From an uncultured bacterium (lineage in GTDB: Bacteria > Fermentibacterota > Fermentibacteria > Fermentibacterales > JCC-6): DNA of 42,339 bases. Positions 11,980-39,194 of the stretch are shown here, piece after piece. Position numbers and translations under genes: made by a program. The stretch is taken from contig CAZXEF010000002.1 in assembly GCA_964639605.1 (NCBI GenBank), positions 1-42,339 of the forward strand, given 5' to 3'. Within the stretch, counting starts at the first letter, position 1; each line of letters begins with the position of its first letter. Under the pieces are notes generated by a model. The model had not been told where the DNA came from. It made no database searches and saw only the letters and a program-made list of their open reading frames with translations.

Positions 11980-12426
11980 TTAATGTCCCATTTTCAGGCC
12001 CGGCACCGAGTGCTTTCCAAAGAATACTACAGCTGCTCCCAGTCCTGCGGCAAGGCCGGTGAACATCCTGATCGGGTTGCTGCTCTGATATGTCGTGCAG
12101 AGCTGGACCAGTCCATCCGCAATGAAAGGCAACAGGGCCGGCAGGCCCGTCCAGAACGGAAGGCTGAACCGCGGTCGGTACATGGCAGCGGTTCCCAGAC
12201 AAAGCCCGAGCCAGAACGCCGTGCACCTTGCACAGAGACCGGAAGGACCCCATGGAAGATGGATGCACCTGGACGGCATGCGGTGGCAGAGGGATGTCAG
12301 CACGGGGTCTGCGAAATTCCCGGCATCACCCAGGACCGGTCTGACCACGGACATCAGAAACAACAGAAGGGAAGGAAGACCAAGCACCAGGGCCAGGACC
12401 AGTCTTCCCCTCTCTTCGGTTCTCAT
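11980..12426 (-). CDS. DUF2085-like integral membrane protein
   Basis: 148 aa, about 4 TM segments. The CHRMPSRC...CARCTAFWLG cysteine pattern is typical of DUF2085. Confidence 0.6.
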   Translation of the reverse strand: MRTEERGRLVLALVLGLPSLLLFLMSVVRPVLGDAGNFADPVLTSLCHRMPSRCIHLPWGPSGLCARCTAFWLGLCLGTAAMYRPRFSLPFWTGLPALLPFIADGLVQLCTTYQSSNPIRMFTGLAAGLGAAVVFFGKHSVPGLKMGH

Positions 12427-12445: not shown

Positions 12446-14044
12446 TCACTCCTCTATCCAGATTATCCTGGTCCGGTTGTCCGCCTGTATCTCTCCCAGT
12501 TCCTCTATGTAGCCGGAGACAGCCTCCATGAGAGTGATGTTGGCGGGAACCGCCTCATGTTCCAGCATTATCTCGTAGCCCACGTTCCCCTGGGCCAGGT
12601 AACCTGTAGTGACGAGGCTGTAGATGCTGTCCGGATTCCACGGTTCACCACCAACCAGGATATCGCTCATCTTCTGACCGTCGGGCATTGTCTGGTTGCG
12701 GGTAGCGGTCAATCCTCCTATCTCCATGTCCCTTCTGCGGCCCTGCATTCCGGTTTCCAGGATGTCCCTGAGCTCGGCGCCGGTGACTTCCAGAATGAAG
12801 AGGTGCTCCTCGAAGGGAATGGCCTGATAGATTATTCTGGGGGTCAGGGGTCCACGGGGAATGGCTGCCCTTATCCCGCCCCGGTTCATGAGCGCCACAT
12901 CGGCTCCCGTACTCCAGAGCATGGCATCCGCTACGAGCCTCCCCAGTGGATGCTCGGCATCGCCCCTGGTGATCTGCTCCAGAGCCTCTCCGATGACCTG
13001 GTCCATTCCGGCCTCTGCCACCGACCTGAACCCGTCTATCATCTCCGCCGCCTGAGGGTCGGGCCAGAACTCATCATGAAGGAGGCTTATATACTCCTCC
13101 CCCTCCGGCAGATCGTAACCCACCAGGGTCCCGGTCTCCGTGTCTATGGCCAGCCTGAGCCTGCCTATCCCCGTGCCGTTCGCATAACCCTGTACTACGA
13201 TCGTGTGATTTACAGGACTCACCCAGGGCTCACTGAGACCAAGATGGGTATGCCCGGACACGATGACATCGATGCCCGGTACGAGGCAGGTCAGTTCAGC
13301 GTTGTTCATGGAGAAGTCCTTGGTGTACTCCTCCCCCTGGTCCCAGGCACTGTAGACCCTCTCCAGGTATCGGTCCGGATCACCAGGCTGTCCGAGGTGG
13401 GAGACCAGGATGACGATATCGGCACCCAGTTCCCTCACCTCCTGCACGTACCTCTCCGTAGTCTCGACCTCGTTCAGGAAGACATACCCGGCAAGCAGCT
13501 CGGGGGTCACGAGCCCATAGGTATCGGGAGTCGCAAGACCGATGAAAGCGATGTTCACGCCATCGTATTCCCATATCTCGTAAGGAACTACGGGATAAGG
13601 GATCTCCCCGGTGGCGGAATCGACGAAGTTGGTGCATATCACCGGGAACTCCGCCTGCCGGCACAGCTTGAGCACATTATCGGTACCGTCATCGAAATCA
13701 TGGTTACCCAGGGTCATCATGTCGTATTCAATGGAGTTCATCCACTCCATCACGAACTCGCCGCCCTGATAGTTCCCCGTAGGGGTGCCCTGATAGATAT
13801 CCCCGACGTCTATCAGCAGACAGTACTCCCCTTCGGCCCGGCATTCCTCCCTCACTGCGTTTACATAAGAGCTGATGTAGGCTCCTCCACCGATCATCGG
13901 GGGAAAGTCGGGATTCATGAACGATGCCTCCGTCGGCACTATCCCGCCATGTATGTCATTCGTATGGAGTATGTTCAGATATATGATCTCGCCTGACGCC
14001 CCGAAGGCCAGCAGGAGCGAAAGGACAGGAAGCAGTACTCTCAC
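12446..14044 (-). CDS. Secreted bifunctional metallophosphatase / 5'-nucleotidase (UshA-like)
   Basis: 532 aa. Signal peptide MRVLLPVLSLLLAFGASG. Calcineurin-like motifs HTNDIHGG, DVGD and GNHDFD, and a C-terminal 5'-nucleotidase substrate-binding-like half. Confidence 0.88.
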   Translation of the reverse strand: MRVLLPVLSLLLAFGASGEIIYLNILHTNDIHGGIVPTEASFMNPDFPPMIGGGAYISSYVNAVREECRAEGEYCLLIDVGDIYQGTPTGNYQGGEFVMEWMNSIEYDMMTLGNHDFDDGTDNVLKLCRQAEFPVICTNFVDSATGEIPYPVVPYEIWEYDGVNIAFIGLATPDTYGLVTPELLAGYVFLNEVETTERYVQEVRELGADIVILVSHLGQPGDPDRYLERVYSAWDQGEEYTKDFSMNNAELTCLVPGIDVIVSGHTHLGLSEPWVSPVNHTIVVQGYANGTGIGRLRLAIDTETGTLVGYDLPEGEEYISLLHDEFWPDPQAAEMIDGFRSVAEAGMDQVIGEALEQITRGDAEHPLGRLVADAMLWSTGADVALMNRGGIRAAIPRGPLTPRIIYQAIPFEEHLFILEVTGAELRDILETGMQGRRRDMEIGGLTATRNQTMPDGQKMSDILVGGEPWNPDSIYSLVTTGYLAQGNVGYEIMLEHEAVPANITLMEAVSGYIEELGEIQADNRTRIIWIEE

Positions 14045-14059
14045 TGTTACTCCCCCCGC

Positions 14060-15292
14060 CTACAGCCGGAAAGCCCGGCTGATTGAGAACATGACCCTGG
14101 TATCCGTTTCCTCAACGGTAAGGCTGTCTCCGGAGACGAAGGACGGGAGTCCCGCCAGCTCGGTCTGCATCCACCTGTCAGGGGAGAAGCTCCCGCCCAG
14201 ATCAAGGTTCCAGTCCCCCGAACGGAAGCCCAGGCCGGTGGTGAAGCTCATCCTGTCAAGCGAAGCTGCGATGGGAGAACGCCGGTAGCTGAACCCGAAC
14301 CTTGCGGTGGGTCCACCGGGAAGCGTGTTCTCCACACCGAAGCTCATGCCCCATGAGTTGGAAAGCCCCAGGCTTACATCCTCGAATTGCAGTGACCCTT
14401 CGTTGCTCCAGAAGAATTCGCCCGTCACCCTGGACCTGAGAGTGTTCCCCGGAACGTAAAGGGCTCCGAGTTTCACGGTCATGGGCATGTCCAGGTCGTA
14501 ATCCTCATCGGATAGAGTGTTCCAGTCCACAGGGTCTCCCGAGTTCTCCGGGGATACGGAAAGGGCCATCGGGTATTCCACCGCGGCACTGACGAACACT
14601 CTCCTGTGGGGAGCGAACAGAAGAGAACCTCGAGTGACTACTCCGGACATGGATTCACTGCGCCCGGCAAGGGTCCCGTCCTGTGAAGGGTCCGTGAAGG
14701 CAACTTCCCAGGAGACATCCCTGCTGCCCGTGACATAGCCGCCGGCCAGCCCGAACGTGAGGACCTCGGAAGGCATGAAGGCCACGGCCAGATCGAACTC
14801 GTTCAACTGACCGGAGATGTCCAGCATCTCCTCGCCTGTCTTCACGTAGGCAGCGTCCCTGATGATGCGGTCGTAGCTGTAGCCGAAGATCGCAGGTACC
14901 CTGTAGCCGGCGGCGAAGGCCACCGACCCGGGAAGCCCGGAAACTCCGCGAAGGGCCACGGCGGCCCCTCCGGGGAAGAAGGACATTTCCTTGTTGAAGG
15001 CTATCTCCGATTCCCCTATGGAACTCTCGAACTGGTCATAGACCCTCCTGGTACGCTTCTCTACGAAGAAATCAGCCCCGCCCGAGAACTCCACAAGAAG
15101 CCCCTCTTCCGATAGTCCCAGCAGAGAGGGGTTCTCCAGCATGCCCAGGGCGGAGGTTTCCATGAAGCCGGACCCGCCCATTGCATGCGACACGGCGGAC
15201 TGTGAGCCCAGGGGCTCACCCAGCCACATCACCTCCGGCAGTCCGGCGGTAACCGTCATTAGCGATATCATTCCTGCTGCGATAATGCTCAT
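14060..15292 (-). CDS. Outer-membrane beta-barrel protein, FadL/PorV (UPF0164)-like
   Basis: 410 aa. The N-terminal pattern AVSHAMGGSGF..TSALGMLENPSLLG resembles the (A/G)MGGA...NPA(G/S)L motif of FadL/TodX/PorV-type barrels. Alternating beta-strand pattern throughout. Family assignment is by eye only. Confidence 0.55.
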   Translation of the reverse strand: MSIIAAGMISLMTVTAGLPEVMWLGEPLGSQSAVSHAMGGSGFMETSALGMLENPSLLGLSEEGLLVEFSGGADFFVEKRTRRVYDQFESSIGESEIAFNKEMSFFPGGAAVALRGVSGLPGSVAFAAGYRVPAIFGYSYDRIIRDAAYVKTGEEMLDISGQLNEFDLAVAFMPSEVLTFGLAGGYVTGSRDVSWEVAFTDPSQDGTLAGRSESMSGVVTRGSLLFAPHRRVFVSAAVEYPMALSVSPENSGDPVDWNTLSDEDYDLDMPMTVKLGALYVPGNTLRSRVTGEFFWSNEGSLQFEDVSLGLSNSWGMSFGVENTLPGGPTARFGFSYRRSPIAASLDRMSFTTGLGFRSGDWNLDLGGSFSPDRWMQTELAGLPSFVSGDSLTVEETDTRVMFSISRAFRL

Positions 15293-15304
15293 TGTTCCTC
15301 CACC

Positions 15305-17737
15305 CTACCAGCGGAAATCCAGCTGACAGCGGATCCCGTATTCAGTAGCATGATCGATGAAATCCCTCACCGGGCTGTCAGGGTCGCCCTGGTAGTAGAA
15401 GCTGTCTTCAGGGTCTGGCCTGTAAAGTCCGGTCCTGGGATAGAAAGTGTCTTTTCGAAGAACCCTCAGCCTGAGCTGCAGATTGTCGGACAGGTTGTTC
15501 TTGATAGTCACATAGAATTTCGTACCGTCACCGTCGAGGAAATCGATCCCGGTATCCTCGAATTCCCACTGGCTCATCCCGTCGGTGGACCAGAGGGTGG
15601 TCCCTCCAAGAACGGAAAGGGCTTCGCTGAAGTTGTGTTCCCACCGTGCGGCCAGGTAACCGCCGGACATCAGTCTGTCGTCTCCGTAGAGCGGGTTGGG
15701 GGTCAGCTCCACCATGCCCACCCTGAGCTGGACATCAAAGAAATCGCTTTCGCTGGGAAGGAAGAATGTCCTGAAGGTGTACTCGGTGGTACGGGACGTC
15801 GTGGGTACGACATCATGCATCTTGGTCTTATCCTGGAACTTGTACTTCAGCCTGAACCTCACTGTAAAATCAGGCCTGTACTCCACCTCCCCCTGGAATC
15901 TGTAGTTGTCGAATCCGTAGGGGATGGACCTCCACAGGTCAAGGTAGACCTTGGTGAAGGTGATGCTGCGGCTTACCTGGAAGCGGCTCTCGATGTACAT
16001 ACCCTCCTCGGGTTTCGGGGTAGGCCACTGGGCCAGCTGGGAGGAGAGGGGGTCGTTGAGGTAGTAGGGTTTCTCGAAGATCGTGTCATCGTATCGCAGC
16101 TGCTCCGCGAAACCCCGGTTGTACGGATTGTTGAAACCCAGGTCGTAGTGGCGCCAGATACCAAGGAGGTAGAAGTAGTCGTTCTGCCACATCCCCCTTG
16201 CCAGTGCGGCCATGGACTCGTTGTCCTGGCGCACCATCTCACCCTCCAGACTTACGTTGTCGATAATGGTCTGGGCCGAGAAGCCGACGAATGATGAGGA
16301 TTCACCTGCCTCCAGCACATCGTACTCCGGGCAGCTCCACACCTGGGCGTCGCCGGGGATGTCCATCGTCCCCGCATCGGGGACCAGCGAGTCACTGTAG
16401 CTGACGTTCATGCCCCCGAGCCCTATTGCCGTGCCGCAGGGCAGAAGGCCTCCGAAGTCGTAGAAGCCGTAACCGCCGTAGGTGGTCTCCTTGACCACGT
16501 CGGCGTAGGGGGAAGTCCTGGTGGCCGACATGAAGAGGATGTTCGGCGTACCGTCGATATCCCTGATGGCGTCCCTGGACGCGCTGGAATAGAACCCGTA
16601 TCCAAGGAACGGCCCTGTCTGGACCTCAAGGGCACCTCCCACCATGGCGAACTGCCTGGTTGAGGTGAGATCGGGGTAAAGACCCCATGTTCTGTAAGTC
16701 GACCTGTACATCATCTCGTCAGAATTGTCTATCAGCAGCCCCTGACCCAGAGACAGGTGATAGTTGCCGAGGACGGCCTGCCTTACCGCTCCGATGTTCT
16801 CTATGGCCGCGAATCCCTTGGCCACGTCAAAACGCCGGTTGAGATCCCCCAGGTCAAGGTCGTCGAACAGACCGAATCCCGAAGACGAGTTCCTCCCCCT
16901 GGAAAGCCTTGCTCCTCCCCTGAACCTGTCACCCAGTCCCACACGCACCCGGTGTTCCCAGGCGGTGGTGTTAACCGCCTGCAGAAGCTCCTGGTGCTCG
17001 TCACTTATCCTCGCCAGCCATGCGATGCTGTCCGATTCGGAGTAGCCCCTGCCGCCGGACATCATGTCGTACTCGGCTGACCTGAGCTCGCCCAGCATTG
17101 TCCCCAGGCCCTCCTCGTCGTAGAACCTTCCGTCGCCCCCGTCAACCACGACCCTGTAGCTGCCGAAGAAATCCATGGAGCTCAGGTCAAGGTCCCTGAT
17201 GGAAATGAAGTCACGCATGTTCCGGTAGCCGTAGTAAGTGAGGTTGTCCACGTTCCGCAGTGATGTTACGCTCGAGACGGGACCGAGGGTCTTCAGTCTG
17301 GTCTCTACCGCCGCAGCGTCCACAAGGCTCACCCTGTCAAGGCTGCGAAGCTGCCATGAGGTTGCGGAATTTATGGGAATGGGTCGGATCAGGTAGTTCT
17401 CCCACATGTCCACCGCGGCGTCACCGGGACCATCCTCGGTGGCAAGCCTCTCCATGACGCTCATAACCTGCTGGGATACGATTCCCTCGGAAGGAGGGAC
17501 CACAACGCATCTGCTCCTGAGATAGTCAAGCTCCTGAGGACCGAAGCCCGGGATATCCATCACATCGTATATGCTGCGGAGACCGCCCGTTTCGTAGATG
17601 TACCCGTAGAGTTCCTCCGCCTGAAGGGCAGTGAGGCCCGGCAGTTCCTGCAGCTCCTCCAAAGTTGCGGTGTTGAGATCGAACCCGCCGGGAACGGCCA
17701 GACCAACGCATGCTGCCAGTACCAGACTAGAAATCAT
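15305..17737 (-). CDS. Large outer-membrane protein: two ComEA-type helix-hairpin-helix modules fused to a roughly 600-aa beta-rich (barrel-like) region
   Basis: 810 aa with a signal peptide. LNTATLEELQELPGLTALQAEELYGYIYETGGLRSIYDVMDIPGFGPQELDYL matches the ComEA pattern (N.A...EL..LPG.G...A..I......G.F.S..DL..V.G.G). A second, weaker copy is INSATSWQLRSLDRVSLVDAAAVETRLKTLGPVSSVTSLRNVDNLT. The rest is beta-strand-like and ends in an aromatic residue (..QLDFRW). Confidence 0.6.
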   Translation of the reverse strand: MISSLVLAACVGLAVPGGFDLNTATLEELQELPGLTALQAEELYGYIYETGGLRSIYDVMDIPGFGPQELDYLRSRCVVVPPSEGIVSQQVMSVMERLATEDGPGDAAVDMWENYLIRPIPINSATSWQLRSLDRVSLVDAAAVETRLKTLGPVSSVTSLRNVDNLTYYGYRNMRDFISIRDLDLSSMDFFGSYRVVVDGGDGRFYDEEGLGTMLGELRSAEYDMMSGGRGYSESDSIAWLARISDEHQELLQAVNTTAWEHRVRVGLGDRFRGGARLSRGRNSSSGFGLFDDLDLGDLNRRFDVAKGFAAIENIGAVRQAVLGNYHLSLGQGLLIDNSDEMMYRSTYRTWGLYPDLTSTRQFAMVGGALEVQTGPFLGYGFYSSASRDAIRDIDGTPNILFMSATRTSPYADVVKETTYGGYGFYDFGGLLPCGTAIGLGGMNVSYSDSLVPDAGTMDIPGDAQVWSCPEYDVLEAGESSSFVGFSAQTIIDNVSLEGEMVRQDNESMAALARGMWQNDYFYLLGIWRHYDLGFNNPYNRGFAEQLRYDDTIFEKPYYLNDPLSSQLAQWPTPKPEEGMYIESRFQVSRSITFTKVYLDLWRSIPYGFDNYRFQGEVEYRPDFTVRFRLKYKFQDKTKMHDVVPTTSRTTEYTFRTFFLPSESDFFDVQLRVGMVELTPNPLYGDDRLMSGGYLAARWEHNFSEALSVLGGTTLWSTDGMSQWEFEDTGIDFLDGDGTKFYVTIKNNLSDNLQLRLRVLRKDTFYPRTGLYRPDPEDSFYYQGDPDSPVRDFIDHATEYGIRCQLDFRW

Positions 17738-18557
17738 AGGTCACCCCGAACTGGTGGGTCAGGTCGAGCTGAGGATGGGTAATGACGGCGTAGTCGAGCA
17801 GGATCCCGCTCACCGAGGTCTCCAGTCCCCCGGAGATCGTGACCGGTCCGCTCTGGACCCCGGCCATCACGGTGAGAGGTCCCAGCGGAAGGGCCTGACC
17901 TACATGTACCCTTGTCCCGTCAAGGTCGCGGGAAAATGTCAGGGCGGAGATCATACCACCGGAAGGCTCGTAGCGAAGTCCGGCGTCCATCCTTCTCTTC
18001 AGGTACTCCCCGCTCTCCCCTATCCTGGCCTGGAAGGGGTTCCGTATCGAGGCCGCCAGCAGCCACCTGTCGTACATCCTGACCTGAAAACCGGCATTGA
18101 CCGCGAAAGCGGTGGCGCTGCCGTACTCCGATACCCCGTCGGCTATCTCCGCCCTGCAGATGACAGGCTGTATCCCGAAGGACATGTCATCGGTCAGCAT
18201 CCCCGCAAAGGTAAAGGCTGCCATCTGCTCATTGTAGAGGTCTCCGCCGAAGTAGCGGAGGCTGAGACCGGCCTTCCACCTTCCGGCCAGGGGAAGCGCT
18301 CCGTCCGCCCCGTAGGTCCCGAAGTCCATGTTCGAGAAGGGGAGCCTGCCCGAGCAGGTTGCCGTGATGGTCTCGGCGCCGGCAATGGAAGCCGGGTTGA
18401 AAAGAACGGAGCCCGTTCCGAACAGGACCACGCCGGTTCCCCCCATGGCCTGGGCGGCTACGCCGATCTCAAGTTCCTCGAACGCTGCAGTTGCCTGTCC
18501 CGCCATGGCAAGCAGGATCAGGAAGAATACTCTGGTCTTAATGCGCATATGTGACAC
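17727..18557 (-). CDS. Small outer-membrane beta-barrel protein, FadL/PorV/PorQ-like
   Basis: 276 aa. Signal peptide ..LLAMAGQATA. AAQAMGGTGVV..GSVLFNPASIAG motif. C-terminal ..FGVTYDF (terminal Phe typical of BAM substrates). Confidence 0.55.
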   Translation of the reverse strand: MSHMRIKTRVFFLILLAMAGQATAAFEELEIGVAAQAMGGTGVVLFGTGSVLFNPASIAGAETITATCSGRLPFSNMDFGTYGADGALPLAGRWKAGLSLRYFGGDLYNEQMAAFTFAGMLTDDMSFGIQPVICRAEIADGVSEYGSATAFAVNAGFQVRMYDRWLLAASIRNPFQARIGESGEYLKRRMDAGLRYEPSGGMISALTFSRDLDGTRVHVGQALPLGPLTVMAGVQSGPVTISGGLETSVSGILLDYAVITHPQLDLTHQFGVTYDF

Positions 18558-18558
18558 C

Positions 18559-19578
18559 TCAATTCAGCGGAGCGGCCACCACCACCGTCTCGGTGGTGGT
18601 ATAGCGCTTGCCTTCAGAATCCACGCCTTCCAGAAGCACCAGGTAGGGACCCATTGAGAGGAACTCGCCGGAATCATCCGTGCCGTCCCACTGGACAACG
18701 TCACCCGCGGGTCTGGATTCGGCAAGGTGCGCCACATCCTTTCCCGCCCTGTCGAACACGGTAAGGGAGAACGACATGTCCGAGGGTCCACCGTACTCCA
18801 TATTGACCGTTTCTCCAAGTATCGGTGCAAAGGGGTTTCCTGTCAGCACCGTGAGATGGAACCCATCGGAGATGGATGGCTGGTACACCTGCAGGTCCGA
18901 CTGGTACCTAGGAAGCAGCTGATAGCCACTGTCGTAGGGAGGTTCCGAGTCGTACTGCCCCCCTATCCCCTTCATGAAGAGCCTGGTGCCTGCGGATATG
19001 CCGGAAACGCTTATTCCGGTAGTGGAGTTGACCCGGACGGCAACGGCGGTCTGTCCGTTCCATACGGTGAAATTGTAACCGCCTCCGGCGGACTCCGGAC
19101 TGTTAGCCACGGTAACCCACTGTCCCTGACCGCTGTTACCCAGTGCAAGCAGGAGCCCTTCCACTCCTTCGGTGACACCCTGGTTCAGTCCAAGCTGCAG
19201 AGGATCGGGCACTCCCGGGAAATCCAGGTAAGTGAAATCGGAAGAGCTTGCAGGTGAGATCTCGACGAGACCGTTGTACTGCTTTATCTCACCCGTGATC
19301 CTCCATCTCTCCCCTGCCTGTATGGGACCCGGGCTGGCGGAATCGTACGCGTATACGTTGATTCCCGCGGTCTCATCCTGAACGTAGAAACTAAGTCCGG
19401 TCTCGGAGAAGAGCGTGCCCTCACAAGTGGCCGTACCCTCTATCGTGAGTATCTCGCCGAGGTGATCGGGAATCCCGTCACCGTTCAGGTCCTCCCGGGC
19501 CTCCTGAATGGTCACTGTCTGGGCTCCCGACAACCCGATGAAAAGTGTCAGGATCAGTACCGGGAAACTGCTCGTCAT
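18559..19578 (-). CDS. Secreted protein: N-terminal OB-fold-like module plus C-terminal FlgD-Ig / T9SS-like sorting domain
   Basis: 339 aa with a signal peptide. ILTIEGTATCEGTLFSETGLSFYVQDETAGINVYA...GERWRITGEIKQYNGLVEI resembles the OB module found in ExeM/NucH/YhcR-type extracellular nucleases. The C-terminus NPFAPILGETVNMEYGGPSDMSFSLTVFDRAGKDV..WDGTDDSG..GPYLVLL is FlgD-Ig-like. Confidence 0.5.
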   Translation of the reverse strand: MTSSFPVLILTLFIGLSGAQTVTIQEAREDLNGDGIPDHLGEILTIEGTATCEGTLFSETGLSFYVQDETAGINVYAYDSASPGPIQAGERWRITGEIKQYNGLVEISPASSSDFTYLDFPGVPDPLQLGLNQGVTEGVEGLLLALGNSGQGQWVTVANSPESAGGGYNFTVWNGQTAVAVRVNSTTGISVSGISAGTRLFMKGIGGQYDSEPPYDSGYQLLPRYQSDLQVYQPSISDGFHLTVLTGNPFAPILGETVNMEYGGPSDMSFSLTVFDRAGKDVAHLAESRPAGDVVQWDGTDDSGEFLSMGPYLVLLEGVDSEGKRYTTTETVVVAAPLN

Positions 19579-19605
19579 CGTCTCCCCTTTCTTGATTGCA
19601 TTTTA

Positions 19606-20916
19606 TCAGTCAAGCTCGGACTCAAGCTCGGCATCGGAGAGGTTTGCGGCCCTCTCCAGGGCTTCCTCCGCGCTCATTCTGCCGTAAAGCGCTATCTCCA
19701 CAGCCTCGGAGAGGAACATCCTTCCATCGTACCAGAAGGTTCCCTGAGGCTCGAAATACGCATATTCCACCTGCAGCATGACATCCTCCAGACCGGGGTA
19801 CTTCCTGAACAGCTCGCGTACCACCGGATGTGAAAGCGAACTCCTGGTTGCGGGAATATAACCTGTGGCGGCACTCCACCGTGCCTGCTGCTCCGGCTCG
19901 GTGAACCATTTTATGAACTCCCAGCCGGCCCGTACCTCTTCCGGGCTTGACCTGAACAGTATGACATTCGTGCCTGCGATTATGACGGCTTTCTCCCTTC
20001 CGGCCGGAAGGGGGGCTATGCCCAGGGTGAAAACCTCGTCGCCGCTGTTCTCCATCCTCTCGATGCTGCTTTCCAGGAAAGCCATCGATACGGTGGAGCC
20101 CTGCACCAGTCCCACCTTTCCCTCAAGGAAATCGTTCTGGTGGGTATAACCTGAGGATATCCTTGCTGAACCGTCCTCATGTATCAGGTCTATCAGGAGC
20201 TGAAGGGCCTCTATTCCCTCGGGTGAATTGAAGGCGGTTCGCGTGCTGTCGCTGTTAAGGAGGGTGCCCCCGTTCTGCAGGAGCAGGTTCTCGAACATTC
20301 CCACGCTGGGATCGAAGGCGGTCCCCCACCTGTCGGAATCGTCCAGCAGGTCGCCATCGCCGTTGCCGTCCAGAGTGAGGGAATCAAGGACCATGCGGTA
20401 ACTGTCCCAGGTATCAGGCGGGGACAGCCCCAGAAGGTCCATCAGCTCTGAATTGTAGTAGATGGCCTGGACGCTCTTGTTGAAGGGAAAACTGTATATT
20501 CGGCCGCTGTAGGTGTTGTTCCGGCGGAAAACGCTGAAAAAATCGCTGTTCCATCTGTCCGTAATATCCGGGGAGTCCAGCTCCATCAGCGAATCCAGGG
20601 GAACCAGTGCCTCTCCCCTGATCAACTGGGATGTCCATGTCTCGTAGGCCTGGGCGACCACGGGCGGATCGTCCGCCATGACGCTGGCCAGTATCTTCTG
20701 GCACAGCGCCCTGTAGTTCCCCATGCTTACCGGAACGACCTCTATTCCAGGGTGTGTGTCGTTGAACTCGGTGATGAGGGTGTCCTCCAGGTATTCTCCC
20801 AGCGGACCTCCCATGGCGTGCCAGAATTCTATCCGGACCTCATCGTCGCTGTTCCTGGAATCCTCCCCGCAGGCCAGCGCGAGTAGCAGGAGAATCGGAA
20901 AGGATCTTCTGAACAG
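19606..20916 (-). CDS. ABC-transporter substrate-binding lipoprotein, family-1 (sugar / glycerol-phosphate type), orphan
   Basis: The 402-aa track ORF starts at the ATG at 20814. The frame stays open upstream and encodes a complete lipoprotein signal (L)FRRSFPILLLLALAC|GEDS, preceded by GAGGAGG 6 nt before a CTG at 20916. The body resembles MalE/UgpB-type SBPs. No permease or ATPase gene lies nearby. Confidence 0.8.
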   Translation of the reverse strand: MFRRSFPILLLLALACGEDSRNSDDEVRIEFWHAMGGPLGEYLEDTLITEFNDTHPGIEVVPVSMGNYRALCQKILASVMADDPPVVAQAYETWTSQLIRGEALVPLDSLMELDSPDITDRWNSDFFSVFRRNNTYSGRIYSFPFNKSVQAIYYNSELMDLLGLSPPDTWDSYRMVLDSLTLDGNGDGDLLDDSDRWGTAFDPSVGMFENLLLQNGGTLLNSDSTRTAFNSPEGIEALQLLIDLIHEDGSARISSGYTHQNDFLEGKVGLVQGSTVSMAFLESSIERMENSGDEVFTLGIAPLPAGREKAVIIAGTNVILFRSSPEEVRAGWEFIKWFTEPEQQARWSAATGYIPATRSSLSHPVVRELFRKYPGLEDVMLQVEYAYFEPQGTFWYDGRMFLSEAVEIALYGRMSAEEALERAANLSDAELESELD

Positions 20917-20995: not shown

Positions 20996-21256
20996 TCAGG
21001 AATCATCGCAGCAGCAGCCTCCGGAGGGACAGCTGCCCTTCTTCTCCCCGCAGCTTCCGTGGTCGCCGTTCCCGCCCTTTGCGTAGTCCGTGGCGTGGAA
21101 ACCGGATCCCTTGAAGATGATGCCCGAACCGGTGCCTATCTTCCTCTCGGCCATCCCGCCGCACTCGGGACACTTCCTCGGCTCGGAATCGTTCATCTTG
21201 TGAAACTCGTCGAAGGTGCAGCCGCAGCTTTTGCACCTGTATTCGTAAGTAGGCAT
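20996..21256 (-). CDS. FmdB-family zinc-ribbon protein
   Basis: 86 aa. MPTYEYRCKSCG...KCPECGG CxxC-CxxC ribbon and a Gly/Cys-rich tail. Confidence 0.85.
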   Translation of the reverse strand: MPTYEYRCKSCGCTFDEFHKMNDSEPRKCPECGGMAERKIGTGSGIIFKGSGFHATDYAKGGNGDHGSCGEKKGSCPSGGCCCDDS

Positions 21257-21272: not shown

Positions 21273-21578
21273 TCAATCGTTGCTCATAATACTTATGGCA
21301 CCCGCGGTACAGACATCGGAACAGGCGCCGCATCCGGAGCAGTTCCTGCTCACCCTTGCCGTCCCGCTCCGGTCCAGCCTGATGCGCCGGTGAAGGCAGA
21401 TGCTCAGGCACTCTCCGCAGCCGAGGCAGAGGGCCCTGTCCACAACAGCCATCCTGAGCGGTTTCGGCCTGCCGAACAAGCCCTTCCCAGGATATCCCTC
21501 TGCTCTTCCTCGCATAATCGTCAACCAATCCGCTGAAAAGTGGTTCCAGCAGAGATCGTATGGCAATATTCGTTCCAT
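21273..21578 (-). CDS. 2x[4Fe-4S] ferredoxin-domain protein
   Basis: Two CxxCxxCxxxC motifs (CLGCGECLSIC and CSGCGACSDVC). The start is uncertain: 21578, or the internal ATG at 21452, which gives a classic 59-aa ferredoxin. Confidence 0.75.
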   Translation of the reverse strand: MERILPYDLCWNHFSADWLTIMRGRAEGYPGKGLFGRPKPLRMAVVDRALCLGCGECLSICLHRRIRLDRSGTARVSRNCSGCGACSDVCTAGAISIMSND

Positions 21579-24324: not shown

Positions 24325-25845
24325 CTACCGAAGCAGCATCAGCCTGCTCGAGACCCTGATACCGCCGGTGCTGAATTCGCAGATGTAGATTCCTGAAGGC
24401 TCTTCGGCAGTATCCCAGGTAACCGTACCAGCACCGGCCTCAAGAAAACCTGAGAGGATGTTCGACACCCTCCTGCCGCAGAGATCATATATTGTGATCT
24501 CCGCGGGTCCCGAAGCCTCCAGGCTGTACAAAAAGGTCGCCGTACCGCTGAAGGGATTGGGGCCGGCAAGGTCCAGTGTCGCTGAGGGGGGGTCCGTGAC
24601 ACCCCCCTGACCTAAGCCGGTATCCGAATTCCTGACGCATCGGACGAAGTTATATATCCTTACCACGTCGCCCTGGGGACCATGTCCGTGGGGATACTGG
24701 GAAGGGTCGCCTGTTTTCGGGTCGCTCCTCTGAGCGCCGGCCCCGTGGACGTCCCAGAGTTCCCAGGAGGTCGAGTCCGGTGTCATCATCCAGCCCAGCG
24801 CCTCGCCGAAGGCTATGTAGACGGCAAAGCCGCCATCATCCCCGGGCATCGTCGTCTGATGGGTTGTCCCGGTCCAGTAGAAACCGAAGTTCGGGGTACC
24901 GCCTTCGTCTGTGATCTGGGTACAATCGAAGACGGAATCGATGGACGGTGAGCCGGTGGCCTGCATCGACCTCTCATAATCCACAATACTCTGCAGCTCA
25001 TGGGCGTTGGGAAGCCGCCAGTCATCGTACCCGGCCAGGCAGAGGTCCTCAGCGCAGGCAAGGGCTTCCTCCCAGTTCCTTCCCGTGCCGTCGTCAGCCT
25101 GCTGCCACATCAGCCCGGTGGCCGTGTCCGTAACGGTACCGTCACCGTTGTCGACGAACTGGTTCTGGCCGTAACAGTCGCCTCGCACGTATCTGACGAA
25201 GGACCGCATCAGGAAAGTCTGCCCGGGAGGACCCACCTCCTGGCTGGGGTAACCCTTTATCCTTCCATCGGCGAAGTTCACCCCAAAGGCTGTTGAATCT
25301 CCATTCATGGTCAGTCCCCGGTAAACAGTGGATGACCAGTACTGGGCATCGATAAGCCTTTCGCCGGCAAGGGTGTCGCCGTACTGGAACTCGAAATAGT
25401 CAGTATCGATGAAGGGTATCAGGTTCTGTGGGTCAGGTCCGCTCGGATCGGTGCCGCTGAACTGGATCAGCGAGTAGAGTTCCTTGATGGTCGGCAGTCT
25501 CCAGTCACTGTATCCTCCTGTGCCGCAGGTGTCCACACCGGTCTCGGCTTCTTCCCAGGACATCTTCTCCGGGGGCAGCCCCTGCTGCCACATCAATCCT
25601 GTGTTAAGGTCCGTGACCGTTCCGTCGCCGTTGTCCACGTATGAAGGCTGGAGCCCAGAGAACTGGGCGTCCTGACCGTAAAAAGGTTCTCCTGGCTGCG
25701 GTTCTCCGATCACCGATACAGTATCGAAGCACAGTGACTGGTCGGTGTCCGGCAGCGGGTAAGGGACCGCGGCCACCCATGCCGGTGCAGCGAACAGCAT
25801 GAGAAGCCCCGTTGCATCATGGACCCATTTCTTCCAAACGCCCAT
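24325..25845 (-). CDS. Secreted DUF1566 (Lcl C-terminal domain) repeat protein with T9SS/FlgD-Ig-like C-terminal sorting domain
   Basis: 506 aa with a signal peptide. Two DUF1566-type modules (GLMWQQ...DWRLPTIKELYSL and GLMWQQ...DWRLPNAHELQSI). C-terminal NPFSGTATFLYSLEASGPAEITIYDLCGRRV...SGIYICEF. Confidence 0.7.
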   Translation of the reverse strand: MGVWKKWVHDATGLLMLFAAPAWVAAVPYPLPDTDQSLCFDTVSVIGEPQPGEPFYGQDAQFSGLQPSYVDNGDGTVTDLNTGLMWQQGLPPEKMSWEEAETGVDTCGTGGYSDWRLPTIKELYSLIQFSGTDPSGPDPQNLIPFIDTDYFEFQYGDTLAGERLIDAQYWSSTVYRGLTMNGDSTAFGVNFADGRIKGYPSQEVGPPGQTFLMRSFVRYVRGDCYGQNQFVDNGDGTVTDTATGLMWQQADDGTGRNWEEALACAEDLCLAGYDDWRLPNAHELQSIVDYERSMQATGSPSIDSVFDCTQITDEGGTPNFGFYWTGTTHQTTMPGDDGGFAVYIAFGEALGWMMTPDSTSWELWDVHGAGAQRSDPKTGDPSQYPHGHGPQGDVVRIYNFVRCVRNSDTGLGQGGVTDPPSATLDLAGPNPFSGTATFLYSLEASGPAEITIYDLCGRRVSNILSGFLEAGAGTVTWDTAEEPSGIYICEFSTGGIRVSSRLMLLR

Positions 25846-26663: not shown

Positions 26664-27284
26664 CTACCGGAAGGTGGCCTTGGCAACACCCCAGGTGTAA
26701 TGCTCAACGGTGTAGCCGTCGGGCCTGTTGTCGAACCATCTCCTGATGGACCACAGGCCGTAGGTATCCTCCACCATGAGGAACTTGACGCGTCCCCGGG
26801 CCGAGTTTTCCCAGCCTGCGTAATCGCTTCCGGCTACCACTATCTCGTAGTCCCTCCAGATGTCAGCGGAATCGGTGGGGGCCACCGGGTCGGGGATCTC
26901 CGGTACAAAGTTCATAACCACGTAGACAAGGCTGTCTTCCGGCAGACCCGATCCCGACACGAAATTGTAGATGTTCATCAGAGTGTTCTGCTCCACCTGA
27001 TAGTTCCAGTTGCCGAAATTCCATGAGCCGCCGAAATCGGTTGTATCGGCACCGTCGGCGACGAACATGTACGAGGAATCGCAGCAGGCCATGGTCATGG
27101 CGATCGACCTTCCCTCCAAGGAGTTCTCAAGGTTCACCACCACCGTGGAGGGAGAGTAGGGCTGCTGCCAGGGTATCGCCTCCCCCGGGTCCGGGTCCTC
27201 AGGATCCCTCGGTTCGAAGAAGGAGCAGGACGTGACAGCAAGGGCTGCAATGACTGACAGGACGATGTAACTGCGATATCTCAT
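26664..27284 (-). CDS. Lipoprotein of unknown function
   Basis: 206 aa. Signal plus lipobox ..AALAVTS|C. No recognisable catalytic motif. 12 nt downstream of the 606-aa barrel gene. Confidence 0.6.
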   Translation of the reverse strand: MRYRSYIVLSVIAALAVTSCSFFEPRDPEDPDPGEAIPWQQPYSPSTVVVNLENSLEGRSIAMTMACCDSSYMFVADGADTTDFGGSWNFGNWNYQVEQNTLMNIYNFVSGSGLPEDSLVYVVMNFVPEIPDPVAPTDSADIWRDYEIVVAGSDYAGWENSARGRVKFLMVEDTYGLWSIRRWFDNRPDGYTVEHYTWGVAKATFR

Positions 27285-27296
27285 TTGTTCTCCCGA

Positions 27297-37431: not shown

Positions 37432-37433
37432 GA

Positions 37434-37985: not shown

Positions 37986-38011
37986 CCTCCCTCTGAAGAT
38001 GTTGCGCTCGC

Positions 38012-39190: not shown

Positions 39191-39194
39191 GCCG

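What the first reader, a model, noticed from the sequence alone, without database searches (positions are those of the whole stretch)
12446..20916. Compact envelope operon: orphan SBP lipoprotein, OB/FlgD-Ig secreted protein, three beta-barrels (one with ComEA HhH modules) and a 5'-nucleotidase
Six consecutive minus-strand genes are separated by only 27, 1, -11, 12 and 15 nt, and DUF2085 follows after another 19 nt. That spacing argues for one transcription unit. Three members have parts that elsewhere bind or degrade nucleic acids or nucleotides: ComEA-type helix-hairpin-helix modules on the 810-aa outer-membrane protein, an OB-like module of the kind seen in ExeM/NucH/YhcR extracellular nucleases, and a UshA-like secreted 5'-nucleotidase. 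These sit alongside two FadL/PorV-like barrels and a periplasmic binding lipoprotein. I know of no characterised system with this composition.

Hypothesis A: an outer-membrane machine that captures extracellular DNA or nucleotides and feeds dephosphorylated products inward.
Hypothesis B: a PorV/PorQ-like attachment or secretion module serving cargo with a FlgD-Ig C-terminal domain in a lineage that lacks the classic T9SS.

Both hypotheses are inference.
Basis: partly seen in the sequence, partly recalled or inferred. Interest (0 to 1): 0.8.

Follow-up and report, generated by a model that had tools for sequence, protein, structure and literature searches.

The report
Conserved outer-membrane DNA/nucleotide scavenging gene cluster
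Several uncultured bacterial phyla share a gene cluster built around a large, uncharacterised outer-membrane barrel with ComEA-type DNA-binding modules, plus two small partner barrels and a 5'-nucleotidase, and it most likely captures and digests environmental DNA or nucleotides without the pilus or TonB machinery used by known systems.

Summary
The genes, coordinates and gaps (27, 1, -11, 12, 15, 19 nt) are as described. Tight spacing is normal here: the median gap in the window is 9.5 nt. The real evidence is conservation.

A four-gene core consists of a PorV-like 276-aa barrel, an 810-aa HhH-barrel, a BamG/FadL-like 410-aa barrel and a catalytically intact 5'-nucleotidase. It recurs in nearly every Fermentibacterota locus and in WOR-3, Edwardsbacteria, 'Cloacimonadota' and Latescibacterota MAGs, where the HhH-barrel is only 33-39% identical.

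The 339-aa "OB/FlgD-Ig" protein is a divergent DUF5689 module (HIN-like tandem OB fold) with a T9SS-type C-terminal domain. DUF5689 proteins are the proposed DNA receptors of the Riemerella transformation system and the Bacteroides ddb DNA-utilisation locus. Related loci add a PLD-type nuclease, an ABC permease, an ortholog of the binding lipoprotein, pyrimidine-nucleoside phosphorylase or RecJ.

Best reading (about 0.5): an outer-membrane DNA/nucleotide acquisition module whose translocon is a new, roughly 24-strand barrel with a fused periplasmic ComEA-like domain.

Caveats:
- Three of four HhH hairpins lack G-Φ-G.
- The OB module is strongly acidic.
- The barrel assignments score below family thresholds.
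- There are no expression or biochemical data.

Verdict: new variant of a known kind.

The parts
19606..20916 (-). Substrate-binding lipoprotein (436 aa) of the UgpB-like branch of the CUT1 SBP family. It is an accessory member of the cluster, and its ABC importer is encoded elsewhere.
   Evidence: CTG start after a GAGGAGG SD sequence, with lipobox LALA|C. Pfam SBP_bac_8 2e-36; NCBIfam UgpB 97 bits against a cutoff of 411. Best solved relatives are the Thermus 7c0f/7c14 series (1e-41), then UgpB. Present upstream in 33 of 34 Fermentibacterota loci. Orthologs occur in L058 (39% identity) and in L079 (43% identity), where the gene sits beside an ABC permease and a pyrimidine-nucleoside phosphorylase.
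18559..19578 (-). Secreted 339-aa protein: signal peptide, one DUF5689-like tandem-OB (HIN-like) module (about residues 20-235), and a T9SS-type C-terminal domain (about residues 250-339). Candidate surface nucleic-acid receptor.
   Evidence: FlgD_ig 27.8 bits, CHU_C weak. AF2 pLDDT 85.5. Top Foldseek PDB hits are the dsDNA-binding HIN domains p204, p202, MNDA, IFI16 and AIM2. A profile of the protein aligns residues 30-229 to segments that Pfam calls DUF5689 in L055 and L064. Present in 39 of 39 Fermentibacterota loci.
17727..18557 (-). 276-aa outer-membrane protein of the FadL/PorV superfamily (P276). Core member, always immediately upstream of the HhH-barrel.
   Evidence: Clear AxA signal peptide and C-terminal F. 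PorV_fam 31 bits, below the cutoff of 90. A profile of 12 orthologs hits PorV 6h3i_F at 3e-5, then TodX/TbuX. Scattered weak Toluene_X, UPF0164 and TraF_2 hits. Upstream of the HhH gene in 42 of 43 and 30 of 30 loci, and also in Hymenobacter and Balneolaceae.
15305..17737 (-). 810-aa HhH-barrel, the core and defining member: signal peptide, two ComEA/EEPD1-type (HhH)2 modules, then a barrel of roughly 24 strands with no Pfam family.
   Evidence: HHH_3 50.8 bits, and nothing else in Pfam. AF2 pLDDT 70, pTM 0.71, about 24 long strands. Foldseek returns only generic large barrels, led by the 24-strand FimD usher, with TMq 0.33 or less. A profile gives 182 representative clusters at E<=1e-30.
17504..17686 (-). 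HhH module 1 (residues 18-78).
   Evidence: Aligns to the ComEA DNA-binding domain (8dfk, 8dss) and to EEPD1 HhH1. The second hairpin keeps G-F-G and the first is G-L-T. Net charge is -8.
17198..17386 (-). HhH module 2 (residues 118-180).
   Evidence: Aligns to EEPD1 HhH2. It is the most conserved stretch of the family (L-D-R-V-S-L-V-D-A and Y-G-Y-R-N-M-R-D). It is basic (+3, pI about 10) but has no G-Φ-G hairpins.
14060..15292 (-). 410-aa outer-membrane protein of the FadL superfamily, closest to BamG (B410). Core member.
   Evidence: NCBIfam BamG 30 bits, below the cutoff of 250. A profile of 10 orthologs hits 9hjm_F at 1.8e-8 and BamG 9n2d_B at 9e-8, then FadL-like 3dwo. Downstream of the HhH gene in 39 of 40 and 26 of 30 loci.
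12446..14044 (-). Secreted UshA-family 5'-nucleotidase (532 aa). Core member.
   Evidence: Metallophos and 5_nucleotid_C above threshold. All five metallophosphoesterase motifs are conserved across phyla. Type I signal peptide without a lipobox. Present in 35 of 35 and 24 of 26 loci.
11980..12426 (-). DUF2085 membrane protein. A neighbour within Fermentibacterota only, and probably not part of the system.
   Evidence: Pfam DUF2085 3e-18. Within 5 kb downstream in 26 of 26 Fermentibacterota loci, often with another gene in between. Absent from the other phyla.

Best explanation
The cluster encodes an outer-membrane module for acquiring extracellular nucleic acid or nucleotides.

**Core, shown to be conserved.** A large barrel of roughly 24 strands has an N-terminus carrying two ComEA/EEPD1-type (HhH)2 modules. 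It is flanked by two small FadL-superfamily barrels, P276 (PorV-like) and B410 (BamG-like), and followed by an active, secreted 5'-nucleotidase.

**Inferred mechanism.**
1. DNA or oligonucleotides are held at the surface by the DUF5689/HIN-like tandem-OB protein. That protein is exported by means of its T9SS-type C-terminal domain (CTD) and docked on the PorV-like P276.
2. The polymer or its fragments pass through the wide HhH-barrel.
3. The fused HhH domain, which should be periplasmic like other N-terminal OMP domains, binds the incoming strand. It biases movement inward in the way free ComEA does, without TonB or a retracting pilus.
4. Periplasmic hydrolysis ends with the 5'-nucleotidase releasing nucleosides and phosphate. 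In some lineages a PLD/Nuc-type nuclease is encoded alongside.
5. The UgpB-like lipoprotein SBP hands a phosphodiester or nucleoside product to an ABC importer encoded elsewhere.

The main purpose is probably nutrient salvage (P, N, C, nucleosides). Feeding DNA into ComEC for transformation is not excluded.
For: **Shown.**
- Positional orthologs of all four core genes occur across lineages in which the HhH-barrel is 33-39% identical. Frequencies are P276 72/73, B410 65/70 and 5'-NT 59/61.
- The N-terminal 190 residues match the tandem HhH region of EEPD1 (E=7e-19) and the ComEA DNA-binding domains.
- The barrel has about 24 strands. Its nearest structural neighbours are 24-strand ushers, which pass folded proteins.
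- The 5'-NT catalytic motifs are intact in every full-length ortholog.
- The 339-aa protein is homologous to DUF5689 segments, and its model matches dsDNA-binding HIN domains best. The same resemblance was reported for DdbD (PMC12478041).
- A DUF5689 protein is required for transformation in Riemerella (PMC8459023). DdbD, also a DUF5689 protein, lies in the ddb locus, whose deletion as a whole abolishes DNA depletion in B. thetaiotaomicron (PMC12478041).

**Accessory genes recruited to the core in other lineages are nucleic-acid related.**
- PLDc_2 (Nuc-like) in L055, L060 and L079.
- An ABC permease, an SBP ortholog (43% identity) and a pyrimidine-nucleoside phosphorylase in L079.
- RecJ in 15 of 24 non-Fermentibacterota loci.

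**SBP.** Its closest solved relatives lie in the phosphate-ester/phosphodiester branch of CUT1. They are UgpB and the Thermus 7c0f/7c14 series. I recall that series as the UpG dinucleotide-binding protein, but I could not confirm this. That such a Thermus protein exists and is related to UgpB is stated in PMC12718374.

**Inferred, not shown.** Periplasmic location of the HhH domain, passage of DNA through the barrel, the ratchet, complex formation among the three barrels, and the SBP ligand.
Against: - Only one of the four HhH hairpins keeps the G-Φ-G motif. Module 1 is acidic (-7 to -11 in Fermentibacterota), and module 2 lacks both hairpins. DNA binding is therefore not guaranteed. HhH folds can also serve as protein-binding modules, as in PsbU (my recollection).
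- The tandem-OB module is strongly acidic in all orthologs (net -13 to -25, only 5-10 basic residues), unlike HIN domains. The whole exported proteome of this organism is acidic as well.
- The Foldseek matches to HIN domains are modest (TMt 0.35-0.43).
- No nuclease is encoded in the window's cluster.
- The cluster sits among housekeeping genes (fatty-acid synthesis, Tol-Pal, ClpXP) and is near-universal in its phylum. That pattern would also suit an envelope-biogenesis role.
- RecJ is a housekeeping gene, so its adjacency is weak evidence.
- B410's best relatives are BamG proteins.
- No transcription, localisation or binding data exist.
Confidence: 0.5

Rival explanations
1. The module takes up DNA for natural transformation rather than for nutrition. 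The HhH-barrel would be the outer-membrane entry point that feeds dsDNA to ComEC/DprA, standing in for the PilQ-plus-ComEA pairing or for the Riemerella TonB-type transporter.
For: Riemerella transformation needs three things: a DUF5689 protein, an outer-membrane barrel and a separate HhH protein. Here the same three functions are clustered, and two of them are fused. ComEA-type domains are the hallmark of competence. The P276 + HhH-barrel pair exists without any nucleotidase in Balneolaceae, Hymenobacter and Hydrothermota.
Against: An active 5'-nucleotidase is strictly co-conserved with the core. PLD nuclease, nucleoside phosphorylase and an ABC importer are recruited in relatives. All of these point to breakdown rather than preservation of DNA. 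No comEC, dprA or comF lies in the window or in any neighbourhood examined.
Confidence: 0.12
2. The module secretes or attaches T9SS-type cargo. P276 and B410 would act like PorV/PorQ/PorP, binding C-terminal-domain (CTD) proteins at a dedicated translocon, the 810-aa barrel. The nucleic-acid-like domains would be incidental.
For: P276's best solved relative is PorV. A CTD protein lies directly upstream of a P276-like gene in the window and in L055, L058, L060, L064, L079, L069 and L078. The L078 copy reaches the PorP_SprF threshold and follows a CHU_C (type B CTD) protein. PorV caps the lateral opening of the SprA translocon (established T9SS structural work, from my own knowledge). That offers a structural analogy for a small barrel bound to a large one.
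Against: In most WOR-3 loci the operon starts at P276 after a divergent gidA, with no CTD protein nearby. The 5'-nucleotidase, which is the most constant partner, has no CTD. This reading gives no role to the HhH modules, SBP, PLD nuclease or nucleoside phosphorylase. P276 scores 31 bits against the PorV_fam cutoff of 90.
Confidence: 0.13
3. The cluster is an accessory to, or a variant of, the FCB-type outer-membrane biogenesis machinery. B410 would be a BamG-like adaptor and the other barrels its partners or clients.
For: Profiles of B410 hit BamG chains best, and 7 of 10 orthologs hit the NCBIfam BamG model. BamG is conserved in FCB phyla and docks surface lipoproteins (PMC12611786, PMC12578637). 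The cluster lies in a housekeeping context and is near-universal within the phylum.
Against: The BamG scores are 30 bits or so against a cutoff of 250. No bamA, bamD or BamH-like gene is adjacent. The SBP lacks a consistent acidic lipoprotein-export signal. Nothing in BAM biology explains a co-conserved nucleotidase, HhH modules or DUF5689.
Confidence: 0.08
4. The cluster scavenges phosphodiesters or lipid head groups. FadL-type barrels would import amphipathic substrates, PLD/patatin enzymes and a metallophosphoesterase would cleave them, and a UgpB-like SBP would import glycerophosphodiesters.
For: P276 and B410 belong to the FadL superfamily. The SBP is UgpB-like. PLDc_2 proteins can be phospholipases, and a patatin gene lies upstream in L079.
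Against: The enzyme carries the nucleotide-specific 5_nucleotid_C domain (1e-29). L079 also encodes a pyrimidine-nucleoside phosphorylase. This reading leaves HhH and DUF5689 unexplained. The single-HKD proteins of about 185 aa with signal peptides resemble Nuc-type nucleases in size and architecture (plus my recollection of Nuc).
Confidence: 0.07
5. The genes are functionally unrelated neighbours, packed together only because this genome is compact and largely one-stranded.
For: Gaps of 30 nt or less are the rule in the window (31 of 42), and almost all genes are co-directional. No promoter or terminator pattern delimits the cluster.
Against: Four-gene synteny is retained across phyla at 21-39% protein identity while the flanking genes differ completely.
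Confidence: 0.03

Closest known systems
ddbABCDEF DNA-utilisation loci of gut Bacteroidales (PMC12478041)
   Same: Both are outer-membrane-centred loci for exogenous DNA. Both have a DUF5689 (HIN-like tandem-OB) protein encoded next to an outer-membrane barrel, secreted hydrolases for nucleic acid, and a PUL-like division between surface, outer-membrane and periplasmic steps.
   Different: Ddb uses a TonB-dependent transporter (DdbC) and lipoprotein receptors. Here there is no TBDT, Plug or TonB-box hit. The barrel belongs to an unrelated family without a Pfam model and carries fused HhH modules. The receptor has a T9SS-type CTD rather than a lipid anchor. Two FadL-like barrels and a 5'-nucleotidase are constant members. 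The window's cluster encodes no nuclease.
Riemerella anatipestifer natural-transformation genes RA0C_RS04920/04915/02645 (PMC8459023)
   Same: The same three functional ingredients are present: a DUF5689 surface protein, an outer-membrane beta-barrel and a helix-hairpin-helix protein.
   Different: In Riemerella the barrel is TonB-type and the HhH protein is separate and encoded elsewhere. Here HhH and barrel are a single polypeptide, and the cluster is tied to a nucleotidase rather than to ComEC, DprA or ComF.
ComEA with the PilQ secretin and type IV pilus in classical Gram-negative competence (PMC3879209)
   Same: A periplasmic (HhH)2 domain of the ComEA type sits behind an outer-membrane channel. 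The proposed role is to bind incoming DNA and bias its entry.
   Different: There is no secretin or pilus genes. The HhH is covalently tethered to the channel, is duplicated, and is degenerate in three of four hairpins. TIGR01259 comE scores 33 bits against a cutoff of 152.
T9SS adaptor barrels: PorV on the SprA/Sov translocon, and PorP/SprF with type B CTD proteins
   Same: A small FadL-like barrel is encoded next to, and presumably bound to, a CTD-bearing surface protein and a much larger barrel. PorV is P276's best solved relative.
   Different: The large barrel has about 24 strands and 810 aa, not the very large SprA. No PorK/L/M/N, PorU or PorZ lies nearby. P276 is below the PorV_fam cutoff.
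BamG of the Bacteroidota BAM complex (PMC12611786, PMC12578637)
   Same: B410 is a FadL-superfamily barrel whose closest solved relatives are BamG chains. BamG likewise acts as an adaptor attached to a bigger barrel.
   Different: The score is about one eighth of the family cutoff. There is no adjacent bamA, bamD or bamH. B410 is co-conserved with a nucleotidase.
Periplasmic UshA/CpdB with secreted nucleases in Vibrio cholerae eDNA use as a phosphate source (PMC4714964)
   Same: A UshA-family 5'-nucleotidase acts as the last extracytoplasmic step that turns DNA-derived nucleotides into importable nucleosides and phosphate.
   Different: In Vibrio the genes are dispersed and uptake is through general porins. 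Here the nucleotidase is embedded in a dedicated outer-membrane gene cluster.

Membership tests
ComEA (competence DNA receptor) | HHH_3 (HhH)2 domain above the Pfam threshold | tested here: met
   PF12836 50.8 bits against 27. Aligns to the ComEA structures 8dfk and 8dss.
ComEA (competence DNA receptor) | Whole-protein match to the ComEA family model, and small periplasmic or membrane-anchored architecture | tested here: not met
   TIGR01259 33 bits against 152; TIGR00426 25 bits against 53. The protein is an 810-aa barrel fusion.
ComEA (competence DNA receptor) | Two G-Φ-G hairpins per (HhH)2 module | tested here: not met
   Only one of four hairpins keeps G-F-G. The others read G-L-T, D-R-V-S and D-N-L-T.
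PorV/PorQ family (T9SS) | NCBIfam NF033709 at or above the cutoff | tested here: not met
   P276 31.4 bits against 90; B410 14.5 bits. A profile of P276 orthologs hits PorV 6h3i_F at 3e-5 over the N-terminal half only.
PorV/PorQ family (T9SS) | Binds the CTD of T9SS cargo | not testable with these tools
   Only gene adjacency to CTD proteins is available.
BamG (Bacteroidota BAM subunit) | NCBIfam NF053685 at or above the cutoff | tested here: not met
   B410 30.3 bits against 250. Seven of 10 orthologs hit the model, with a best E-value of 4.5e-10, and all are far below the cutoff.
BamG (Bacteroidota BAM subunit) | Association with BamA, BamD and BamH | tested here: inconclusive
   None of these genes lies in the window or in any of the neighbourhoods I annotated. 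Physical association cannot be tested.
FadL/Toluene_X outer-membrane transporters | Pfam PF03349 match | tested here: not met
   No hit for the window's P276 or B410. Three of 12 P276 orthologs give weak hits, the best at 0.0015. Profile hits to the N-terminal hatch of TodX, TbuX and CymD fall at 0.004-0.02.
UshA-type 5'-nucleotidase family | Metallophos and 5_nucleotid_C domains with intact metal-binding motifs | tested here: met
   50.8 and 104 bits, both above the cutoffs. The DxH, GD, GNH(D/E), H and GHxH motifs are all present. It is not the UshA equivalog: 178 bits against 600.
DUF5689 / DdbD-like DNA receptors | Pfam PF18942 match | tested here: inconclusive
   No direct Pfam hit at E<=0.1. 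A profile of the protein aligns residues 30-229 at 1e-24 to 1e-27 with segments that Pfam assigns to DUF5689 in L055 and L064.
DUF5689 / DdbD-like DNA receptors | HIN-like tandem-OB fold | tested here: met
   The top Foldseek PDB hits are HIN-200 domains, with probability 1.0, E-values from 5e-6 to 1e-3 and TMt 0.35-0.43.
DUF5689 / DdbD-like DNA receptors | Binds DNA | not testable with these tools
   The acidic surface (net -17) is a caveat.
Ddb-type DNA-utilisation locus | TonB-dependent transporter (DdbC homolog) adjacent to DUF5689 | tested here: not met
   No TonB_dep_Rec, Plug or CarboxypepD_reg hit in any cluster protein. The barrel matches no TBDT specifically.
T9SS cargo (C-terminal sorting domain) | CTD model at the extreme C-terminus | tested here: inconclusive
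   FlgD_ig 27.8 bits against 27, CHU_C 18.9 bits against 27, and no Por_Secre_tail hit in the window protein. Larger orthologs give weak Por_Secre_tail hits. Whether this lineage has a T9SS could not be determined.
UgpB (sn-glycerol-3-phosphate SBP) | Equivalog model at or above the cutoff | tested here: not met
   NF008211 96.8 bits against 411. The protein is a family-level relative only.

The most novel reading that the evidence does not exclude
The 810-aa protein would found a new class of outer-membrane nucleic-acid translocon. It is a barrel of roughly 24 strands with a covalently tethered periplasmic ComEA-like ratchet. It would work with a PorV-like and a BamG-like adaptor barrel and need neither TonB nor a type IV pilus. 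It is the standard DNA/oligonucleotide entry route in Fermentibacterota, WOR-3, Edwardsbacteria and allied FCB candidate phyla. It survives as a two-gene form (P276 + HhH-barrel) in Balneolota and some Bacteroidota.
Probability: 0.3. Interest if true: 0.85.

Novelty: new variant of a known kind. Interest (0 to 1): 0.68.

Why it matters
How DNA crosses the outer membrane is well worked out only for pilus-and-secretin systems. A TonB-dependent route has recently been proposed in Bacteroidota. A third route built on a dedicated barrel with a fused ComEA-type domain would add a distinct mechanistic solution.

It would also explain how abundant but uncultured sediment and digester lineages (Fermentibacterota, WOR-3 and others) could tap extracellular DNA, a major pool of phosphorus, nitrogen and carbon.

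[quoted passage not shown] Members exist in cultured Hymenobacter, Gracilimonas and Rhodohalobacter, so the idea can be tested directly by genetics.

Tried and rejected
- **Spacing as evidence for an operon.** Rejected as uninformative. The median gap in the window is 9.5 nt.
- **Sigma-70 promoter and terminator scans.** Nothing delimits the unit. Counts were at or below the shuffled expectation for terminators, and FCB promoters are not covered.
- **Rfam scan for a riboswitch upstream of the SBP.** Only a tRNA-Leu elsewhere. The apparent 760-nt intergenic stretch holds two small genes.
- **Known large barrels.** LptD, BamA/TamA, SprA, TBDT and usher were considered for the 810-aa protein. No Pfam or NCBIfam hit appears beyond HHH_3, and Foldseek TMq is 0.33 or less with generic barrels.
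- **Surface exposure of the SBP through a Bacteroidota-type acidic export signal.** Not consistent across orthologs. L058 and L079 have Lys-rich sequences after the lipidated Cys.
- **Net charge as a test of DNA binding by the HhH modules.** Not decisive. Genuine ComEA segments are also slightly acidic, and this organism's exported proteins are all acidic.
- **Structure prediction using locus-derived orthologs.** Repeated with database homologs.
- **Link between PDB 7c0f/7c14 and the Thermus dinucleotide-binding protein paper.** Not confirmed. The PDB-code search returned only irrelevant papers.
- **Literature on T9SS in Fermentibacterota, or on this cluster.** None found.

Full report
**1. 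Observation**

The ORF map confirms seven consecutive minus-strand genes at the coordinates given:
- 19606-20916 (SBP)
- 18559-19578 (339 aa)
- 17727-18557 (276 aa)
- 15305-17737 (810 aa)
- 14060-15292 (410 aa)
- 12446-14044 (532 aa)
- 11980-12426 (DUF2085)

The gaps are 27, 1, -11, 12, 15 and 19 nt.

The SBP start at 20916 is a CTG, five bases after GAGGAGG. It restores a lipoprotein signal peptide ending LALA|C. The mechanical ORF list stops at the ATG at 20814. The lipobox is conserved in orthologs.

The two 'FadL/PorV-like barrels' are sub-threshold. P276 scores 31 bits on PorV_fam against a cutoff of 90. B410 scores 30 bits on BamG against a cutoff of 250.

The spacing argument is weak. 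Across the 43 genes of the window the median gap is 9.5 nt, 31 of 42 gaps are 30 nt or less, and nearly everything is on the minus strand. Two small genes lie just upstream of the SBP: a Zn_ribbon_8 protein at 20996-21256 and a ferredoxin at 21273-21578. DUF3006 and an RsmI-like methylase continue downstream. Consensus promoter and terminator scans and Rfam add nothing.

**2. Source organism and conservation**

Homologs of the 810-aa protein are named Candidatus Aegiribacteria, Fermentibacteria or Sabulitectum. The closest genome locus is a Fermentibacteraceae MAG at 97% identity.

I fetched 86 loci and labelled their ORFs by BLASTP against the window's proteins.

In Fermentibacterota-like loci (HhH-barrel at least 58% identical), the whole string SBP - OB protein - P276 - HhH-barrel - B410 - 5'-NT is essentially invariant:

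| Gene | Loci with it / loci with enough flank |
|---|---|
| P276 | 42/43 |
| OB protein | 39/39 |
| SBP | 33/34 |
| B410 | 39/40 |
| 5'-NT | 35/35 |

In MAGs labelled WOR-3, Edwardsbacteria, Cloacimonadota, Latescibacterota and unclassified, the HhH-barrel is only 33-39% identical. A four-gene core persists there:

| Gene | Loci with it / loci with enough flank |
|---|---|
| P276 | 30/30 |
| B410 | 26/30 |
| 5'-NT | 24/26 |

Each protein matches its positional counterpart at 21-37% identity. The flanking genes differ completely. In many WOR-3 loci P276 follows a divergently transcribed gidA, so the unit starts there.

A reduced two-gene form, P276-like plus an HhH-barrel of about 670-700 aa, occurs in Balneolaceae, Gracilimonas, Hymenobacter and Hydrothermota.

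An exhaustive profile search finds 182 representative clusters at E<=1e-30. This conservation, not the spacing, shows that the genes belong together.

**3. The 810-aa protein**

Pfam sees only HHH_3. A family profile matches three things in the PDB: the tandem HhH region of human EEPD1 (E=7e-19, covering both modules), the ComEA DNA-binding domains (about 1e-8), and nothing for the remaining 600 residues.

The AlphaFold2 model has pLDDT 70 and pTM 0.71. It shows two helical modules (residues 18-78 and 106-175) followed by about 24 long beta-strands and a terminal aromatic residue. Foldseek returns only generic large barrels, led by the 24-strand FimD/PapC ushers, with query-normalised TM of 0.33 or less.

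It is therefore not LptD, BamA/TamA, a TonB-dependent transporter, a secretin or SprA by any test available here.

The HhH modules are atypical:
- Only the second hairpin of module 1 keeps G-Φ-G.
- Module 1 is acidic.
- Module 2 is the most conserved part of the family (LDRVSLVDA...YGYRNMRD). It is basic (pI about 10) but has no glycine hairpins.

Homology to DNA-binding domains is solid. DNA binding itself is an inference.

**4. The small barrels**

A profile of 12 P276 orthologs hits PorV (6h3i_F, E=3e-5) and then the N-terminal hatch of FadL-type TodX, TbuX and CymD. Individual members give weak Toluene_X, UPF0164 and TraF_2 hits.

A profile of 10 B410 orthologs hits 9hjm_F (chain labelled 'Outer membrane protein') at 1.8e-8 and the BamG chain 9n2d_B at 9.2e-8, and then the FadL-like structure 3dwo. 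Seven of the 10 orthologs hit the NCBIfam BamG model far below its cutoff.

PorV and BamG are both FadL homologs. Both act as adaptors bound to a larger barrel (SprA, BamA) and dock surface proteins (PMC12611786, PMC12578637). That is the most useful analogy for two small barrels encoded on either side of a large one. Membership in either family is not met.

**5. The 339-aa protein**

Its AF2 model has pLDDT 85.5. The model matches the dsDNA-binding HIN-200 tandem-OB domains of p204, p202, MNDA, IFI16 and AIM2 best.

In L055, L060, L064, L079 and L058, much larger proteins occupy the same position upstream of P276. Pfam finds DUF5689, OB-fold and FlgD_ig/Por_Secre_tail in them. A profile of the window protein aligns end-to-end with their last ~300 residues or so (E about 1e-57 to 1e-67). 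Its residues 30-229 also align with internal repeats that coincide with the Pfam DUF5689 segments.

The window protein is thus one DUF5689-like module plus a T9SS-type C-terminal domain.

DUF5689 matters for two reasons:
- RA0C_RS04920 is essential for natural transformation in Riemerella anatipestifer, together with an outer-membrane barrel and a helix-hairpin-helix protein (PMC8459023).
- DdbD is the proposed DNA-binding partner of the transporter DdbC in the ddbABCDEF DNA-utilisation locus of Bacteroides. Its model also resembles p202 HIN (PMC12478041).

The caveat is charge. The tandem-OB part is strongly acidic in all orthologs (net -13 to -25), although exported proteins of this organism are acidic in general.

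**6. Nucleotidase, SBP and accessory genes**

The 5'-nucleotidase has a type I signal peptide. All five metallophosphoesterase motifs are present and conserved across phyla.

Other lineages recruit further genes to the core:
- **L079.** B410 is followed by a PLDc_2 protein of 182 aa (Nuc-like size, with a signal peptide), a short 5'-NT-like protein, an ABC permease, an SBP 43% identical to the window's, and a pyrimidine-nucleoside phosphorylase.
- **L055 and L060.** These carry the same PLDc_2 plus short 5'-NT-like pair.
- **L058 (Edwardsbacteria).** An orthologous SBP (39% identity) and a 1165-aa OB/CTD protein lie upstream of P276.
- **Other non-Fermentibacterota loci.** In 15 of 24, the core is followed by RecJ, and by an RlmI-like methyltransferase in the loci I inspected.

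The short 5'-NT-like proteins have lost every catalytic motif. This hints that the fold also has a structural role in the assembly.

The SBP's nearest solved relatives are the Thermus 7c0f/7c14 series (1e-41), followed by UgpB-type proteins. PMC12718374 places a Thermus UpG-dinucleotide-binding protein next to UgpB in the phosphate-ester branch of CUT1. I believe it is the 7c0f series but could not confirm that.

The SBP is a lipoprotein throughout, but it lacks a consistent surface-export signal. I treat it as periplasmic, serving an importer encoded elsewhere.

**7. Mechanism**

Shown:
- The composition of the cluster.
- Its conservation.
- Homology of the parts.
- Intact catalytic motifs in the nucleotidase.

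Inferred:
1. The DUF5689-like protein is exported through its CTD and docked on PorV-like P276.
2. DNA or oligonucleotides enter through the barrel of roughly 24 strands.
3. The tethered periplasmic HhH domain binds them and rectifies inward diffusion, as free ComEA does in Vibrio (PMC3879209).
4. Hydrolysis ends at the 5'-nucleotidase.
5. The SBP feeds products to an ABC importer.

I put this at about 0.5.

Rivals and their weights:
- Uptake for transformation: 0.12.
- A T9SS-type cargo-attachment module: 0.13. This is probably right for P276 alone, given that CTD-protein-then-P276-like pairs recur and one such barrel reaches the PorP_SprF threshold.
- A BAM-like biogenesis accessory: 0.08.
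- Phosphodiester or lipid scavenging: 0.07.
- Chance neighbours: 0.03.

**8. Novelty**

I found no paper in the searchable library that describes this cluster or the HhH-barrel family. [quoted passage not shown]

The cluster shares its logic and one component family (DUF5689) with the ddb and Riemerella systems, and a domain with ComEA. It replaces the TonB-dependent transporter or secretin with an undescribed barrel family plus two FadL-like adaptors.

I class it as a new variant of a known kind. There is roughly a 0.3 chance that the barrel is a genuinely new type of DNA translocon.

Noticed in passing
window 20914-20916 (minus strand): The SBP gene appears to start at a CTG codon five bases after a GAGGAGG Shine-Dalgarno sequence. 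Only this start gives the lipoprotein signal peptide. Standard ATG/GTG/TTG ORF calling truncates the protein by 34 residues.
   Followed up: partly
window 20996-21256 and 21273-21578 (minus strand): The apparent 760-nt intergenic gap upstream of the SBP holds two small genes. One is a Zn_ribbon_8 (FmdB-like) protein of 86 aa with a Cys/Gly-rich acidic tail. The other is a 4Fe-4S ferredoxin of 101 aa. Both are co-directional with the cluster.
   Followed up: partly
L055 11878-13407; L060 11742-13353; L079 11555-12979: In three non-Fermentibacterota loci, the full-length 5'-nucleotidase is replaced by two genes. One is a secreted single-HKD PLDc_2 (Nuc-like) protein. The other is a 5'-NT-like protein of 290-308 aa that has lost all five metal-binding motifs and the C-terminal domain, so it is a probable pseudo-enzyme kept for a structural role.
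   Followed up: partly
L078 4818-6922; L069 12614-14853: After the 5'-NT gene come a second CTD-bearing protein (FlgD_ig/CHU_C, N-terminal part unknown) and a second P276-like barrel. The L078 barrel just reaches the Pfam PorP_SprF threshold. The pairing mirrors that of type B CTD proteins with PorP/SprF in T9SS.
   Followed up: partly
L004 7742-10674; L087 7150-10109; L088 7147-10019: A shorter HhH-barrel (670-700 aa, one clear HhH module) with a P276-like gene directly upstream occurs in Balneolaceae, Gracilimonas and Hymenobacter, without B410 or a nucleotidase. These are cultured organisms, so the gene pair is open to genetic testing.
   Followed up: partly
window 24325-25845 (minus strand): A 506-aa protein has two Lcl_C domains and a weak Por_Secre_tail at its C-terminus. 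It is another candidate T9SS-type cargo, which suggests the lineage does use CTD-dependent export.
   Followed up: no
window 26664-29117 (minus strand): Two adjacent proteins of 206 and 606 aa have no Pfam match at E<=0.001. They lie between a methyltransferase gene and ksgA.
   Followed up: no
window 29929-31050 (minus strand): The ORF carries a TatD_DNase C-terminal portion (residues 6-177) fused to a Radical_SAM domain (residues 196-350). This could be an unusual fusion, or two genes merged by ORF calling.
   Followed up: no
whole window, for example 6963-8444, 12446-14044, 24325-25845, 39195-39944: Exported and envelope proteins are uniformly very acidic (pI 4.1-4.5, net charge -20 to -56), while membrane and some cytoplasmic proteins are not. 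This fits a saline habitat and affects any charge-based argument about DNA binding.
   Followed up: partly
window 18559-19578, residues 28-40 of the product: A conserved D-x-N/D-G-D-G-I-P-D stretch at the start of the mature 339-aa protein looks like a calcium-binding DxDxDG loop. This was read by eye and not tested.
   Followed up: no
window 36757-41018 (minus strand): A complete Tol-Pal-like block runs TolQ (MotA_ExbB), TolR (ExbD), a TonB_C/TolA-like protein, TolB (PD40), Pal (OmpA) and a TPR CpoB-like protein. A tRNA-Leu follows at 36309-36394, then tig-clpP-clpX. This is a housekeeping context for the cluster.
   Followed up: no
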